A stretch of 58,457 bases of DNA from an uncultured Dehalococcoidaceae bacterium (GCA_964414675.1 CAYPYF010000007.1:1-58457), one strand, 5' to 3'; numbered from the stretch's first letter, positions 4,583-8,690 are shown. The notes: generated by a model not told the origin, from the sequence alone. Numbers and translations: made by a program.

Positions 4583-5890
4583 ATGCTGAAGAGACGCATG
4601 CACACGTTCGCCCGCGTCGGGTCACGGGTCCATCGCGACGAGCGAGGGCAGGCGCTGCCCCTCCTGGTCGCCGCCATGATGGTCTTCGTGGTGATGGGCG
4701 TGATCGTCATCGACTTCGGCCAGATGTTCGCGGACCGGCGCGAAGCACAGCGCGCCGTGGACCTCGCAGCACTGGCCGGAGCGCAAGACCTCCCATGGGA
4801 GGCGGACGACCCCAACGCACTGGCCAAGCTCCTCGCGGCACGCGCAAGCGCAGAGGGGTTCCTGGACACGAACGGCTACCCCGCCGTCGCGTCAGACGTC
4901 GAGGTGATCGTCACGACCGAGTATGGCAGCGACCCTCGCGCGATCGAGGTGGAGGCGCGACGGCCCAGCATCTGGCGCTTCGGGACGCTGTTTGGCGTCG
5001 GGCAGCCCTCGGTCGGTGCGCGCGCCGTGGCGCAGCTGCGGACCCTGCCGACCGAGTACGGGATCATGGCGCTGAGCCACGCGGCCTGCCAGGCGTTCCA
5101 GGTGGAAGGAAACGTCACCCTAGAGGTCATCGACGCAGGCATCCTGGTGAACTCGAGCTGTCCCAACTACGCCATCGACATCGTCGGCAACGTCATCGTC
5201 GAGAGCGCACAGTTCGACCGCTACTACGAGGGCTCGACGTGGATCACCTCGAACACGACCGTGGACCCGATGCCGCAGTCGCTCGGGTGGCGTGTCGACG
5301 ACCCGCTCTCATACCTGCTCGAGCCCGACCCGTTGACGCTCCCGACGTCACCCGATTCCGGGGGGACGTCCGCGAGCCCCGCGCTCAGGAGCCTCGGCGG
5401 TGGAGGGAGCCAGACCCTGCGGCCGGGCGTCTACTGGGGCGGCCTGTCGATCGCGGGCAACAAGGATGTGGTCTTCGAGTCCGGGCTGTACGTGATGGCC
5501 GGCGGCGGATTCACGATCCGCGGAAACGGCGACATCACCGGCGACGGGGTCACGATCTTCAATACGACCCGTGGAGGCTCCTGCGGCGCGATCGACCTCG
5601 CTGGCGGTCGGCCCCTCGGGTTCTCGCCGCAGTTGTCGGGGCCATACGAGAGCCTGACGTTCTGGCAGTCCGTGGGCTGCACCAGGACCATGGTTCACGG
5701 CGGCACCGTGGACTCCCTCAGCGGACTCATCTATCTCCCCACCGCGGCGTACGAGCTGGCGGGCGACGGCACGATGTCGGGCGTCCAGGTCATCGCCTCG
5801 ACGGTCCGGGTGAGCGGCAACGGCATCGTCACGATCGACTACGAGAACGGCGCCGTCGCCGAGGTCTGGACCGTGATGCTGGTGGAATGA
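4583..5890 (+). CDS. TadG-like pseudopilin/tip protein with large Gly-rich beta domain
   Basis: ERGQALPL + hydrophobic helix, IDFG, AQRAVDLAALAGA Tad N-terminal motif, GGAG RBS. Confidence 0.85.
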   Translation: MLKRRMHTFARVGSRVHRDERGQALPLLVAAMMVFVVMGVIVIDFGQMFADRREAQRAVDLAALAGAQDLPWEADDPNALAKLLAARASAEGFLDTNGYPAVASDVEVIVTTEYGSDPRAIEVEARRPSIWRFGTLFGVGQPSVGARAVAQLRTLPTEYGIMALSHAACQAFQVEGNVTLEVIDAGILVNSSCPNYAIDIVGNVIVESAQFDRYYEGSTWITSNTTVDPMPQSLGWRVDDPLSYLLEPDPLTLPTSPDSGGTSASPALRSLGGGGSQTLRPGVYWGGLSIAGNKDVVFESGLYVMAGGGFTIRGNGDITGDGVTIFNTTRGGSCGAIDLAGGRPLGFSPQLSGPYESLTFWQSVGCTRTMVHGGTVDSLSGLIYLPTAAYELAGDGTMSGVQVIASTVRVSGNGIVTIDYENGAVAEVWTVMLVE

Positions 5891-6010
5891 GTGAGCCCGC
5901 TGGACCTGTCGCACAGGGCCGGTGGAGTGGCGCGGCGTAACTGACCCACTCTTATGTTCTCTTTCGTTCGCCTGACGGGACGGCTCCTACGCTCACGACC
6001 TGGGGGATCC

Positions 6011-6175
6011 ATGCCTCGATGGCGTCAACGGCTCGTGAGCTACTTCGTCATGGTCTATCTGCTCCTGCAGGTGGCGTTCCCCGCCTGGGCGCTTCAGTAC
6101 GCTCACGAAGAGGAACAGTCGCCGCCGTTCTCGTGGCAGATGTTCGCGCGCGTCTTCGAGGACCGGGGTGAATAG
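6011..6175 (+). CDS. Small single-TM protein with FSWQMF motif (detached C-terminal helix of HTTM/VKGC-like proteins; SdpA/DUF5819-like)
   Basis: YLLLQVAFP...EEEQSPPFSWQMFAR. Start at ATG 6011 (GGGGG RBS-like) or 5954. Overlaps the next gene start. Confidence 0.6.
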   Translation: MPRWRQRLVSYFVMVYLLLQVAFPAWALQYAHEEEQSPPFSWQMFARVFEDRGE

Positions 6176-7271
6176 CCTCCTGTCTCGCGAGGCGAGCCCG
6201 CGACACCTGGCGGTGATACGCGTCGTCGTGGGTGTCATGGCAGCGGTGCGGGGCATCGGCTACCTGCCGATGGGCGAGGCGCCGTGGCTCCTGTTGCCAT
6301 GGATCGCGCTGTCAGTCCTCATCATCCTCGGGTGGTGGGCTCGTGCGGCCGCGGTGGCGATGCTCGGGCTCGCTCCGGTGCTGATGCTCGGGGCCGGCAT
6401 CTACAACAACCACTTCTACCTGCTCACCCTGATGGTGATGTTCGTCGCACTCCTCGACTGCGAGCGCCATTACGCGCTGCGGCCCCGAGGGGGCGGCCCC
6501 GTGCTGGCGTGGCCGCTCTTCCTGATGCAGGCCCAGGTCTCGATCATCTACACGTTCGCCGGGCTCGCGAAGATAAACGAGGAGTTCCTGACCGGCGTGG
6601 TCCTCCGCTACCACTTCACTGACGCGGAGATCCCGATCCCCGGGGTCTCCGCCATCGCGGTGCCACTCGCGATCACGACGGTCGCCCTCGAGCTTCTGAT
6701 GGGCTTCGGGATCTGGTCACGCAGGCTGCGGCCGCTCGTGATGGGCATCGCGCTCCCGCTTCACCTCGGGATGTTCGCGGTCGCCCCGACGCCGAACGAC
6801 GTGCTGGGCGTCGCCGTGTTCGCGGTGCTGATGTTCACCCTGCTCTCGGCGTTCCTGCGGCTTCCGGAGCGGGGCCGGCTGGTCGTCTGGGATGGCGACT
6901 GCTCTTCGTGCCGGCGCTGGATCGCCGCGTTCCAGCGCCTCGACCGGTACGGGGCGCTCCGCTTCGTCAGCTCGGGCGACCCGACGGCCTACGACGGGAC
7001 GGGCGTCACCCCCGCCGAGGCGGCGCGTGCCCTCCAGCTCATCGACCCGGACGGTCGAGTGCGCGGCGGCTTCGATGCCGTCGGCGGCGTCGTGGAGATC
7101 CTGCCTGGCGGGGTGCTGATCGCACCCTACTTCCGCCTGCCGGGCATCAGACAGGTGGGACGCCGCGCGTACGCGCGGGTCGCCGATCGGCGCGTGTGTC
7201 GCTATCAGCCTGTGCCGGCGGGAACGAGTGTGACGCAGCCTCGGAGGCCGGGTCCGACCTCCGAGGTATGA
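6168..7271 (+). CDS. HTTM (vitamin K-dependent carboxylase-like) membrane domain fused to a DCC1-like (DUF393) thiol-disulfide oxidoreductase
   Basis: NNHFYLL and QVSIIYTFAGLAKIN HTTM motifs. C-terminal VVWDGDCSSCRRW (DxxCxxC) ...GFDA...Y..VADRR is DCC1-like. Confidence 0.8.
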   Translation: MNSLLSREASPRHLAVIRVVVGVMAAVRGIGYLPMGEAPWLLLPWIALSVLIILGWWARAAAVAMLGLAPVLMLGAGIYNNHFYLLTLMVMFVALLDCERHYALRPRGGGPVLAWPLFLMQAQVSIIYTFAGLAKINEEFLTGVVLRYHFTDAEIPIPGVSAIAVPLAITTVALELLMGFGIWSRRLRPLVMGIALPLHLGMFAVAPTPNDVLGVAVFAVLMFTLLSAFLRLPERGRLVVWDGDCSSCRRWIAAFQRLDRYGALRFVSSGDPTAYDGTGVTPAEAARALQLIDPDGRVRGGFDAVGGVVEILPGGVLIAPYFRLPGIRQVGRRAYARVADRRVCRYQPVPAGTSVTQPRRPGPTSEV

Positions 7272-7289
7272 CTCAACATCGCGGTCGAG

Positions 7290-7395
7290 TCACGGCGCTA
7301 CCCGGTCGAGTCCGTAGCGGGGAACCGAGTTGTGGGGAGCGCCACTGCGGCGTCAAACGTACGGCGCGGACTAACCCCAGGTAATGCAGACCCAT
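7290..7395 (+). ncRNA. Possible shortened c-di-AMP (ydaO/yuaA)-like riboswitch
   Basis: GAGTCC, AGCGGGGAACC, TGGGG and CTAACCCCAGG occur in ydaO order, upstream of a secreted CAP protein. The P5-P7 consensus is missing. Confidence 0.4.
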
Positions 7396-7631
7396 CTGAA
7401 ACGTGTCAGGAATGATCGGAGCCACGGTCCGGAGCGCACGTGGGCTCTGACGTTCTATCAGGCCCGGGTGCCTCTGACCGGAGCAAATTGCTACGCCGAG
7501 AAAGACCGTGTGGCGGAATCACTGGCGATCCGGCCCGTCGCCTTCGAATCCCTCCCTTATGGCCTCTGATGAACCTCTGTTCGGTTCCTTGCGGAGCGCA
7601 GGCGATCCTCTCCGCAGTTGAGGAGGATCGG

Positions 7632-8690
7632 ATGCTACGGATCATTGGCGCGGGCCTGCTGATGGTGATCGCCGCGATCGCGGTGCTCACGGTCACTCCT
7701 CAAGAGAAGACATCGCTGCGCGCCGCCGTGAACGCAGGACCTTCGCACGTGCTGGACTGGGCGCAGGAGACCGCGTCACGTCGGCTCGGCATGGACTCCG
7801 AGGATGAGCCGGGCGGTAGCCCAGGCGGTTCAATCGGGACGAGCGCATCCACGGCCTCGGACCGCAACTCAGAGGTCGCACCATCGTCCGGAACGACGGA
7901 GGCCCCAACGTCTGCGAACACGTCGAACATCCCCGGCACCCCGGCCACATCCGGCGTGCCGGGTGCACCAGCCGATCTCCAGAACGGCACCGGAAGCCCC
8001 GGCCCGCGGGTCGTGTCGAGCATCGACGGCGGCGGGGACGGGGGACCTCAACTCGGGGCCGGCGCACCGAGCCCGTTGGAGGCCCAGGGCGGCCCGGCGC
8101 CAACGCCGACAGCGGCACCTGCGGTCGTACTGAATCACATCGCCAGCGGCACACCAGCCCCCGCAGCGCCGTCTGCGACCCCGTCCGCGGCGGCCACCCC
8201 GTTGCCGACCGCCCTCGCCCCGACACCCTCGGCCACCCAGCCGCCGATGGCCACGGTCACCTCGATGCCCCCGGCATCGATGGCCGCGGTGCCTGACAAC
8301 GCGGGGCTGGCGTCGGCACTGCTCGCGGCGATCAACGAGGCGCGAGCGGCCGAGGGGCTGCCGGCCCTGAACGCCCACACGACGCTCGGAACGATCGCCG
8401 CCGGGCACGCCTCTGACATCGCCGCGCAGCGCCGGCTGTCGCACAACGGTTCGGACGGCAGCAGCCTGAGCGGACGTCTGAACCGCGGAGGAGCGGCGTT
8501 CGGGGCGGCTGGCGAGAACGTCGGACGGGGGCGGGGCGGGGCAGCCGGGATGCCCGAGATCGTGCGCGCCTTCCTCGCCAGCCCCGTGCATCGCGCCAAC
8601 ATCCTGAATCCGGTCTTTCAGAAGGTTGGCCTGGGGGTCGTCGGGGAGAGCGACGGCACCAGCTGGGTCACGGTGGTCTTCACGGACTGA
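7632..8690 (+). CDS. Secreted/membrane-anchored CAP (SCP-like) domain protein with Pro/Ala/Thr-rich linker
   Basis: GGAGG RBS before ATG 7632, N-terminal hydrophobic helix. INEARAAEGLPAL, LSHNG, GENVG, SPVHRANIL...VGLG...WVTVVF. Confidence 0.88.
   Translation: MLRIIGAGLLMVIAAIAVLTVTPQEKTSLRAAVNAGPSHVLDWAQETASRRLGMDSEDEPGGSPGGSIGTSASTASDRNSEVAPSSGTTEAPTSANTSNIPGTPATSGVPGAPADLQNGTGSPGPRVVSSIDGGGDGGPQLGAGAPSPLEAQGGPAPTPTAAPAVVLNHIASGTPAPAAPSATPSAAATPLPTALAPTPSATQPPMATVTSMPPASMAAVPDNAGLASALLAAINEARAAEGLPALNAHTTLGTIAAGHASDIAAQRRLSHNGSDGSSLSGRLNRGGAAFGAAGENVGRGRGGAAGMPEIVRAFLASPVHRANILNPVFQKVGLGVVGESDGTSWVTVVFTD

What the first reader, a model, noticed from the sequence alone, without database searches (positions are those of the whole stretch)
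6011..7271. Split, permuted vitamin K-dependent carboxylase-like enzyme fused to a thiol oxidoreductase beside a pilus tip gene
The HTTM protein keeps the NNHxYL motif and the Lys of AGLAK, equivalent by my alignment to the His160 and catalytic Lys218 regions of gamma-glutamyl carboxylase. The last helix plus FSWxM motif, which normally follows HTTM in the same chain, is instead a separate small gene upstream (YLLLQVAFP...FSWQMF). A DCC1-like DxxCxxC domain takes its C-terminal place. This recalls both the SdpA/SdpB two-gene layout and VKOR-thioredoxin fusions. Inference: a quinone/thiol-coupled modification system, possibly acting on pilins or surface proteins.
Basis: partly seen in the sequence, partly recalled or inferred. 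Interest (0 to 1): 0.65.

Follow-up and report, generated by a model that had tools for sequence, protein, structure and literature searches.

The report
Two-piece bacterial vitamin K carboxylase-like enzyme
A bacterial relative of the vitamin K-dependent carboxylase is encoded in two pieces, with a 54-residue membrane microprotein carrying the last helix and active-site lid; a similar split was predicted for another family in a 2026 preprint, so this is a stripped-down variant, not a new kind.

Summary
A 54-aa gene (6011-6175) overlaps by 8 nt the start of a 367-aa gene (6168-7271). The larger gene encodes an HTTM domain followed by a DCC1-like DxxCxxC domain.

Equivalents of the GGCX active-site residues (K218, N159/H160, D263, F299) are invariant in the family. 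The microprotein aligns by profile (93%, E 3e-7) to the last transmembrane helix plus the conserved lumenal loop LL9 (Q374, P378, W399, M401). In human GGCX, LL9 covers the vitamin K pocket and M401 contacts K218.

The small gene is under purifying selection (pN/pS 0.11). It precedes and overlaps every related HTTM gene examined, and it co-occurs with that gene in 2 of 61 related genomes and no others. Its family has 289 clusters and no Pfam or NCBIfam model.

Most likely this is a two-subunit, menaquinol- and O2-dependent GGCX-like enzyme. The active site would be completed in trans, and the DCC domain would face the cytoplasm. Subunit assembly, chemistry and substrate are inferred, not shown.

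The link to the Tad pilus is not conserved. A 2026 preprint already predicts an analogous split (DUF5819 plus HTTM-DCC1). I therefore class this as a new, minimal variant of a known kind.

The parts
6011..6175 (+). Gene for a 54-aa membrane microprotein. The basic N-terminus is predicted inside, followed by one TM helix, with FSWQMF and an acidic tail outside. It is the equivalent of GGCX TM9 plus lumenal loop LL9. An alternative in-frame ATG at 5954 would give 73 aa.
   Evidence: Q20, P24, L28, F40, W42 and M44 are invariant in the closest relatives; across the 17-sequence set P24, F40, W42 and M44 stay invariant and Q20 and L28 are in at least 90%. hhalign to canonical proteins gives 93%, E 3.3e-7. 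pN/pS is 0.11.
6032..6094 (+). Transmembrane helix of the microprotein (about residues 8-28, LVSYFVMVYLLLQVAFPAWAL). Q20 and P24 correspond to GGCX Q374 and P378.
   Evidence: Hydropathy; alignments.
6128..6145 (+). FSWQMF motif, equivalent to GGCX Y397-S398-W399-D400-M401-M402 in loop LL9.
   Evidence: The role of LL9 and M401 is taken from PMC12647623.
6168..6175 (+). The 8-nt overlap GTGAATAG: the start codon of the HTTM-DCC gene lies inside the end of the microprotein gene. GAGGA at 6158-6162 could serve as the ribosome-binding site. This layout suggests translational coupling.
   Evidence: Overlaps of about 8-17 nt recur at L001, L002, L003, L006, L008, L009, the P0007 contig and G025.
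6168..7271 (+). Gene for the 367-aa HTTM + DCC1-like fusion protein.
6201..6860 (+). HTTM membrane domain (residues 12-231), with eight predicted helices. Equivalents to GGCX: N81-H82 to N159-H160, A131 to A214, K135 to K218, F140 to W223, E175 to D263, H199 to H287, F218 to F299. It lacks the long first lumenal loop and has only a very short cap.
6882..7193 (+). DCC1-like thioredoxin-fold domain (residues 239-342). The D242-x-x-C245-x-x-C248 motif at 6891-6911 is invariant in the family. The domain follows the eighth helix after a basic linker, so it is predicted to face the cytoplasm.
5948..6010 (+). Conserved non-coding block upstream of the microprotein gene. It is 58 of 59 nt identical to the relative L001, apart from a 7-nt variable gap, and includes GGGGGA at 6002-6007. 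It is probably the pair's own promoter or leader.
   Evidence: compared with about 52% divergence at synonymous sites in the adjacent genes.

Best explanation
The two overlapping genes encode the two subunits of a minimal, split homologue of the vitamin K-dependent carboxylase.

The 367-aa subunit provides the eight-helix HTTM core, which carries the quinol-deprotonating Lys and the Asn-His, Glu and Phe residues of the GGCX active site. The 54-aa microprotein is predicted to insert with its N-terminus in the cytoplasm. It supplies in trans the ninth helix and the conserved FSWxM lid loop. In human GGCX that loop closes the vitamin K pocket, and the backbone of its Met contacts the catalytic Lys and bicarbonate.

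Once assembled, the enzyme most likely uses menaquinol and O2 to generate the strong base typical of this family. The base would act on a still unknown extracytoplasmic substrate, by carboxylation or another base-driven reaction. The C-terminal DCC1-like CxxC domain sits on the cytoplasmic face. It probably feeds thiol reducing power to the quinone or its epoxide, or regulates the enzyme.

Shown here: gene structure, homology, residue conservation, selection and co-occurrence. Inferred: heterodimer formation, the chemistry, the DCC role and the substrate.
For: Anatomy and domains:
- ORFs, overlap and Pfam domains.
- The AF2 model (pLDDT 73.6) has 8 TM helices plus a Trx-like domain, and its top 13 PDB fold matches are all GGCX (E 2e-4).

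Active site:
- K135, N81, H82, E175, H199, F218 and D242/C245/C248 are invariant in the family.
- They map to GGCX K218, N159, H160, D263, H287 and F299.

Microprotein:
- Its profile aligns to the helix + FSWRM segment at the start of PF22777 in canonical proteins (93%, E 3.3e-7).
- A 171-aa member of the same family hits PF22777 itself (E 3.7e-6).
- The LL9/M401 function comes from PMC12647623.
- It is a real gene: pN/pS 0.11 and a family of 289 clusters.

Linkage of the two genes:
- The partner gene lies upstream and overlaps in all loci with DNA.
- Among 61 related genomes the partner occurs only in the two that have this type of HTTM gene.

Topology and cofactors:
- Charge distribution and GGCX homology put the microprotein N-in/C-out and the DCC domain in the cytoplasm. 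A single permuted chain would therefore be topologically impossible.
- The genome has MenA and two haem-copper oxidases but no VKOR.
- AF3 predicts an analogous complex for DUF5819 + HTTM-DCC1 (bioRxiv 10.64898/2026.08.19.745780).
Against:
- The Glu-anchoring Tyr395 equivalent is not conserved (P, S, M, Y or Q), the lumenal clamp domains are absent and the cap is tiny. Protein Glu carboxylation as in GGCX is therefore unlikely, and the substrate is unknown.
- No conserved neighbouring substrate gene was found.
- The quinone pocket faces the outer leaflet while the DCC domain is cytoplasmic, so a direct redox link is speculative.
- A medium-sized partner modelled alone gave no fold match to GGCX.
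- Absence of VKOR rests on a genome that is 88.6% complete.
Confidence: 0.65

Rival explanations
1. The two ORFs are one gene broken by a frameshift, either a sequencing error in the GGGG run or a pseudogene. The real product would be a single circularly permuted chain.
For: The ORFs overlap at a G run (CCGGGGTGA), and removing one base would fuse them in frame.
Against: - The same two-frame overlap, with its own stop and start, recurs in independent assemblies at 39-75% identity (L001, L003-L008, the P0007 contig, G025, L009).
- Homologues are consistently about 365 aa.
- The microprotein's C-terminus is predicted outside and the HTTM N-terminus inside, so a direct fusion would not thread through the membrane.
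Confidence: 0.03
2. The pair is an accessory of the neighbouring Tad pilus and modifies pilins or pilus-associated surface proteins.
For: In the window and in L001 the pair follows T2SSF, DUF192, the prepilin peptidase and a TadG-like gene on the same strand. In L008 it lies convergent to DUF192 and T2SSF genes.
Against: - Five other lineages have unrelated neighbours: GT2, GT87, halogenase/TetR, succinate dehydrogenase-like genes and a CPBP protease.
- Same-genus genomes lack the pair, and one of them was checked and carries a Tad locus without it.
- The pair has its own conserved upstream block.
Confidence: 0.12
3. The complex is not a carboxylase. It would be a quinol oxidase or epoxidase, or a thiol:quinone oxidoreductase, whose main job is redox transfer between cytoplasmic thiols (through the DCC domain) and the menaquinone pool. 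The GGCX-like site would only bind quinone.
For: - The substrate-recognition parts of GGCX are missing: clamp domains, Y395 and most of the cap.
- A CxxC domain is fused, and the genome has no VKOR.
- From my own knowledge: the Leptospira orthologue is reported to epoxidise vitamin K without carboxylating (Rishavy et al. 2005).
Against: - Residues tied to CO2 trapping and Glu-carboxylate binding in GGCX (F299, N159/H160, M401) remain invariant. That would not be expected for a pure quinone-binding role.
- The same split partner also serves HTTM proteins that have no DCC domain.
Confidence: 0.2

Closest known systems
DUF5819 protein + HTTM-DCC1-like protein pair (Melghirimyces thermohalophilus A0A1G6IAS5 / A0A1G6IBF2), predicted by AF3 to form a GGCX-like complex (bioRxiv 10.64898/2026.08.19.745780)
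   Same: - Two adjacent genes.
- One partner is an HTTM domain with a C-terminal DCC1-like domain.
- The other begins with a TM helix that takes the place of a GGCX helix and contributes residues to the quinone pocket.
- In Chloroflexota, DUF5819 genes also lie upstream of and overlap an HTTM gene.
   Different: - The window partner is 54 aa, with only a helix and lid loop and no extracytoplasmic domain. DUF5819 partners are about 190-220 aa.
- The window partner does not match PF19136, even at E<=10.
- Profile comparison with DUF5819 is not significant (E 0.079).
- The window partner does show sequence homology to the canonical VKGC tail.
Human gamma-glutamyl carboxylase GGCX (PDB 9L21, 9BVK and others)
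   Same: - HTTM fold.
- Equivalents of K218, N159/H160, D263 (as Glu), H287 and F299.
- Q374, P378, W399 and M401 of TM9/LL9 are present in the microprotein.
   Different: - GGCX is a single 758-aa chain.
- GGCX has a long first lumenal loop, a cap, clamp A/B and a C-terminal domain, all absent here or reduced to a short remnant (the cap).
- Y395 is not conserved here.
- GGCX has no DCC domain.
Canonical bacterial HTTM + VKGC_lumenal_dom proteins (PF05090 + PF22777, for example P0020 and P0024; MloH is the characterised example)
   Same: The HTTM core aligns at E 1e-26. The microprotein aligns to their post-HTTM helix and RFSWRM motif.
   Different: In those proteins the helix, motif and lumenal domain are in the same chain, downstream of HTTM. 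Here they are a separate, upstream and truncated gene.
SdpA/SdpB (Bacillus subtilis SDP toxin maturation)
   Same: A two-gene layout with an HTTM-type membrane protein.
   Different: The window protein has no match to the SdpB family model TIGR04033. The small partner here is a membrane helix, not an SdpA-like protein, and there is no SdpC-like neighbour.

Membership tests
HTTM / vitamin K-dependent carboxylase superfamily (PF05090) | Match to the family model above the curated cut-off | tested here: met
   55 bits against a cut-off of 27.7. hhalign to canonical members gives 99.7%, E 1e-26. The top 13 fold matches are all GGCX.
HTTM / vitamin K-dependent carboxylase superfamily (PF05090) | Catalytic Lys (GGCX K218) and the Asn-His pair (N159/H160) | tested here: met
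   K135, N81 and H82 are invariant in 8 family members. Their positions are confirmed.
HTTM / vitamin K-dependent carboxylase superfamily (PF05090) | Ninth helix and LL9 loop (Q374, P378, W399, M401) in the same chain, followed by the lumenal domain PF22777 | tested here: not met
   The helix and loop are encoded by the separate 54-aa gene. Neither window protein matches PF22777.
HTTM / vitamin K-dependent carboxylase superfamily (PF05090) | Glu-anchoring Tyr (Y395), as needed for gamma-glutamyl carboxylation | tested here: not met
   The equivalent position is P, S, M, Y or Q in the partner family.
HTTM / vitamin K-dependent carboxylase superfamily (PF05090) | Quinol- and O2-dependent epoxidase or carboxylase activity | not testable with these tools
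   Only cofactor availability could be checked: MenA and haem-copper oxidases are present.
DCC1-like thiol-disulfide oxidoreductase (PF04134) | Model match above the cut-off, and the DxxCxxC motif | tested here: met
   57.3 bits against a cut-off of 27.8. D242, C245 and C248 are invariant.
DUF5819 + HTTM-DCC1 split complex (2026 preprint) | An HTTM-DCC1 protein with an adjacent partner that starts with a TM helix | tested here: met
   The same holds in all relatives.
DUF5819 + HTTM-DCC1 split complex (2026 preprint) | The partner belongs to DUF5819 (PF19136) | tested here: not met
   No PF19136 match in the genome at E<=10. There was no Pfam hit at E<=1 for seven of nine longer partner-family members, nor for the window's own ORF beyond a chance DctQ hit at E 0.047. 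hhalign against DUF5819 gives E 0.079, probability 0.7%.
DUF5819 + HTTM-DCC1 split complex (2026 preprint) | A confidently predicted heterodimer that resembles whole GGCX | not testable with these tools
SdpA/SdpB system | Match to the SdpB family model (TIGR04033) | tested here: not met
   No NCBIfam hit for either window protein at E<=1.
VKOR-thioredoxin fusions | VKOR domain (PF07884) | tested here: not met
   No VKOR anywhere in the genome. The resemblance is functional analogy only.
Tad pilus operon component | Conserved linkage to Tad genes across relatives | tested here: not met
   Tad genes flank the pair in 2 of 7 lineages. A same-genus genome has the Tad locus without the pair.

The most novel reading that the evidence does not exclude
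The pair is a self-contained bacterial vitamin K cycle. In this reading a minimal GGCX-type oxygenase has its active-site lid delivered by a 54-aa microprotein. Its fused cytoplasmic DCC1 CxxC domain re-reduces menaquinone or its epoxide, doing the job of VKOR in an organism that has none. With all substrate-clamp domains gone, the enzyme would act on a small molecule or lipid rather than a protein.
Probability: 0.12. Interest if true: 0.8.

Novelty: new variant of a known kind. Interest (0 to 1): 0.5.

Why it matters
- It shows that the vitamin K carboxylase fold can be divided so that a 54-residue microprotein carries an essential active-site loop. This would be the smallest natural version of the enzyme's ninth helix and lid.
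- It defines a partner family of 289 clusters that has no Pfam or NCBIfam model and that gene callers can easily miss.
- It gives a compact two-protein system, about 420 residues in all, for studying quinol-driven base generation and CO2 use without the large eukaryotic substrate-binding domains.
- It corrects a tempting but weak inference that the system serves the neighbouring pilus.

Tried and rejected
- **Frameshift or pseudogene reading.** Rejected. The two-frame overlap is conserved in independent assemblies, and the topology of a fused chain would be incompatible with the membrane.
- **Spurious high-GC ORF.** Rejected on pN/pS 0.11 and the 289-cluster family.
- **Direct BLASTP of the 54-aa protein against a canonical protein.** This found nothing. 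A profile search of the PDB with the small ORFs returned only chance hits to designed proteins. The profile-profile comparison was needed to see the homology.
- **AF2 model of a 122-aa partner on its own.** Foldseek found no significant PDB match. The loop equivalent to LL9 had pLDDT below 50, as expected for a loop that needs its partner.
- **Homology of the partner to DUF5819.** Not demonstrable.
- **Handing the two ORFs in as one chain for structure prediction.** Not possible. In-frame CGG codons rule out the four-letter-codon device, so no complex model was made.
- **First metagenome scan.** It failed because the mixed alignment had no stretch conserved enough to search with. The second scan returned only 4 loci, all of the medium-size partner class.
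- **Rfam and simple promoter/terminator scans of 5700-7700.** Nothing found.
- **SdpB family membership.** Rejected.

Full report
**What is in the sequence**

Two ORFs lie on the + strand. The first is a small ORF at 6011-6175, giving 54 aa; an in-frame ATG at 5954 would extend it to 73 aa. The second is a 367-aa ORF at 6168-7271. They are in different frames and overlap by 8 nt (GTGAATAG). GAGGA lies 5 nt before the GTG start, and GGGGGA precedes the ATG at 6011.

Pfam places HTTM at residues 45-200 of the large protein (55 bits, cut-off 27.7) and DCC1-like at residues 239-342 (57.3 bits, cut-off 27.8). The small ORF's only Pfam match is a chance-level one (DctQ, E 0.047, far below the cut-off). 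Upstream are T2SSF, DUF192, a prepilin peptidase and a TadG-like gene. Downstream is a CAP-domain protein.

**Is the large protein a carboxylase homologue with an intact active site?**

Yes. Direct alignment to GGCX chains in the PDB pairs YNNH with WNNH160 and AGLAK with AGVKK218. An eight-member family alignment has several invariant residues: N81, H82, Y84, L85, A131, K135, F140, E175, H199, F218, and D242, C245 and C248.

Profile-profile comparison with canonical bacterial HTTM + lumenal-domain proteins gives 99.7% probability, E 1e-26, over window residues 12-231. Those canonical proteins align to full-length GGCX at E 1.7e-73, which fixes the numbering. The resulting equivalences are:

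| Window residue | GGCX residue |
|---|---|
| K135 | K218 |
| F140 | W223 |
| A131 | A214 |
| N81 / H82 | N159 / H160 |
| E175 | D263 |
| H199 | H287 |
| F218 | F299 |

An AF2 model (mean pLDDT 73.6) shows eight membrane helices followed by a thioredoxin-like domain. Its 13 best PDB fold matches are all GGCX (E from 2e-4). Compared with canonical proteins, the window protein lacks the long first lumenal loop and has only a very short cap.

**Is the small ORF the missing tail?**

Yes, by profile. Pairwise BLASTP of the 54-aa protein against a canonical protein finds nothing. An alignment of the small ORFs from seven loci, however, aligns to the helix plus RFSWRM segment of canonical proteins at 93% probability, E 3.3e-7. 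That segment is the start of Pfam PF22777.

Through the equivalences to GGCX are Q20 to Q374, P24 to P378, F40 to Y397, W42 to W399, M44 to M401 and F45 to M402. In the closest relatives Q20, P24, L28, F40, W42 and M44 are invariant. Across 17 diverse partners P24, F40, W42 and M44 stay invariant, and Q20, L28 and the Ser after the motif (Ala in the window) are in at least 90%.

According to PMC12647623 this loop (LL9) covers the vitamin K pocket. The backbone of M401 hydrogen-bonds K218 and bicarbonate, and M401/M402 help trap CO2. Y395 anchors the substrate Glu. The Y395 position is not conserved in the partner family, where it is P, S, M, Y or Q.

**Is the small ORF a real, separate gene?**

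- *Selection.* Against a 75%-identity syntenic relative (L001) it shows 16 synonymous and 5 non-synonymous codon differences, pN/pS 0.11. The large gene has pN/pS 0.29.
- *Family size.* A HMMER search of 1.84 billion representative proteins with the small-ORF profile finds 289 clusters at E<=0.001. Among the 150 listed, nearly all fall into two size classes, about 45-66 aa and about 100-170 aa.
- *The longer class.* These add a small domain with two conserved Cys. One 171-aa member matches PF22777 directly (E 3.7e-6). The others have no Pfam or NCBIfam match.
- *Gene layout.* The partner lies immediately upstream and overlaps the HTTM gene by about 8-17 nt in every locus with DNA. These are L001, L002, L003-L005 (Candidatus Limnocylindria MAGs), L006/L007, L008, the P0007 contig, G025, and the distant 487-aa HTTM-DCC protein in L009, whose partner is 208 aa.
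- *Topology.* Charge distribution and homology with GGCX put the microprotein N-in/C-out, the HTTM N-terminus in the cytoplasm, and the DCC domain, after eight helices, in the cytoplasm. A direct fusion of the two ORFs would therefore not thread correctly through the membrane.

Together these points rule out a frameshift artefact.

**Linkage and distribution**

Among 61 related genomes, the window-type HTTM gene is found only in the window's own genome and, truncated at a contig end, in G025. The partner profile hits exactly those two genomes and no others. The other eleven species of the same genus lack the pair. One of them, G008, has a Tad locus (T2SSF, DUF192, TadG-like) without it.

The neighbours of the pair differ between lineages:

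| Locus | Neighbouring genes |
|---|---|
| Window and L001 | Tad genes, co-directional |
| L008 | Tad genes (DUF192, T2SSF), convergent |
| L006 | GT2 glycosyltransferase |
| P0007 contig | Succinate dehydrogenase-like genes |
| L002 | Halogenase, TetR |
| L003-L005 | GT87 glycosyltransferases |
| G025 | CPBP protease |

The only invariably linked gene is the partner. The pair behaves as a mobile two-gene cassette. It also has its own conserved upstream block, 58 of 59 nt identical to L001 even though synonymous sites are about 52% diverged.

The split does not require the DCC domain. Four metagenome loci carry a medium-size partner; three of them extend far enough downstream to show an overlapping HTTM gene, which ends without a DCC domain in the two complete ones and runs off the contig in the third.

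**Cofactors**

The genome, 88.6% complete, encodes MenA (207 bits, cut-off 102) and two haem-copper oxidases. It has no MqnA, no VKOR and no other HTTM gene. Menaquinol and O2 are therefore plausibly available. If an epoxide is formed, no VKOR is present to recycle it.

**Comparison with what is known**

A preprint from August 2026 (bioRxiv 10.64898/2026.08.19.745780) describes an adjacent pair in Melghirimyces thermohalophilus: a DUF5819 protein (N-terminal TM helix plus DUF5819) and a 447-aa HTTM + DCC1-like protein. AF3 predicts a confident complex (ipSAE 0.806) that resembles whole GGCX. The partner helix takes the place of a GGCX helix, and partner residues touch the predicted vitamin K pocket. 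The concept of a split, DCC-fused, GGCX-like bacterial complex is therefore already in the literature.

The window's partner is different in several ways:
- It does not match PF19136, even at E<=10.
- Profile comparison with DUF5819 proteins from other Chloroflexota is not significant (E 0.079). Those proteins also lie upstream of and overlap an HTTM gene.
- DUF5819 itself shows no sequence similarity to the canonical tail, whereas the window's partner does.
- At 54 aa it has no extracytoplasmic domain at all.

**Mechanism**

Shown:
- Two overlapping, co-inherited genes.
- The large one carries every mapped catalytic residue of the HTTM core.
- The small one carries the helix and lid loop that complete the GGCX active site.

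Inferred:
- The two proteins assemble in the membrane.
- The enzyme deprotonates and oxygenates menaquinol to make a strong base.
- The base acts on an extracytoplasmic substrate.
- The cytoplasmic DCC CxxC domain supplies reducing equivalents or regulates the enzyme.

Because Y395, the clamp domains and most of the cap are missing, the substrate is unlikely to be recognised as GGCX recognises Gla proteins. It remains unknown. The pilin hypothesis is not excluded, but gene context gives it little support.

**Verdict**

This is a new, minimal variant of a recently described kind of split GGCX-like system, and its partner family has not been annotated before.

Noticed in passing
window 5948-5978 and 5986-6010: The non-coding stretch just upstream of the microprotein gene is 58 of 59 nt identical to the 75%-identity relative L001, apart from a 7-nt variable gap. 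Synonymous sites in the adjacent genes are about 52% diverged, and the sequence further upstream is unrelated. It is probably a promoter, operator or leader. It also argues for the ATG at 6011 rather than 5954 as the start.
   Followed up: partly
L002 about 5930-5990: The HTTM-DCC gene of this metagenome relative changes frame once near its 5' end. The N-terminal 60 or so residues are in one frame and the rest in another. This is either a sequencing error or a pseudogene. The upstream partner ORF is intact.
   Followed up: no
Partner family: P0042, P0046, P0050, P0054, P0056, P0029, and L028-L031: A medium-size class of partners (about 100-170 aa) adds a small extracytoplasmic domain with two conserved Cys (LC...C at the C-terminus), presumably disulfide-bonded. 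It has no Pfam or NCBIfam model. A 171-aa member bridges to PF22777.
   Followed up: partly
L033, L034, L035 (another genus of Chloroflexota): DUF5819 genes lie upstream of and overlap an HTTM gene that has no DCC domain. This is the same gene layout as the window pair. Their QNWxLFAP motif sits where FSWQMF sits, but the similarity is not statistically significant.
   Followed up: partly
Contig of P0007 (no DNA held): Here the pair is followed by genes for a succinate dehydrogenase/fumarate reductase-type flavoprotein, an Fe-S subunit and a CCG-domain subunit. That is a quinone-linked neighbour and may or may not be meaningful.
   Followed up: no
window 7290-7395: The intergenic region before the CAP-domain gene was flagged by another first-stage note as a possible c-di-AMP riboswitch variant. 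It gave no Rfam match at E<=1 in a permissive scan of 5700-7700.
   Followed up: partly
P0036 (2909 aa), P0088, P0163, P0166: A few very long proteins matched the small-ORF profile in 5-10 separate stretches. These are probably hydrophobic repeats rather than homologues.
   Followed up: no
L009 4390-5016 and 6479-6820: The distant 487-aa HTTM-DCC protein has a 208-aa upstream partner. It consists of a TM helix, then YAYRFY in place of FSWxM, then a larger domain. A 113-aa gene of unknown function follows immediately downstream.
   Followed up: no
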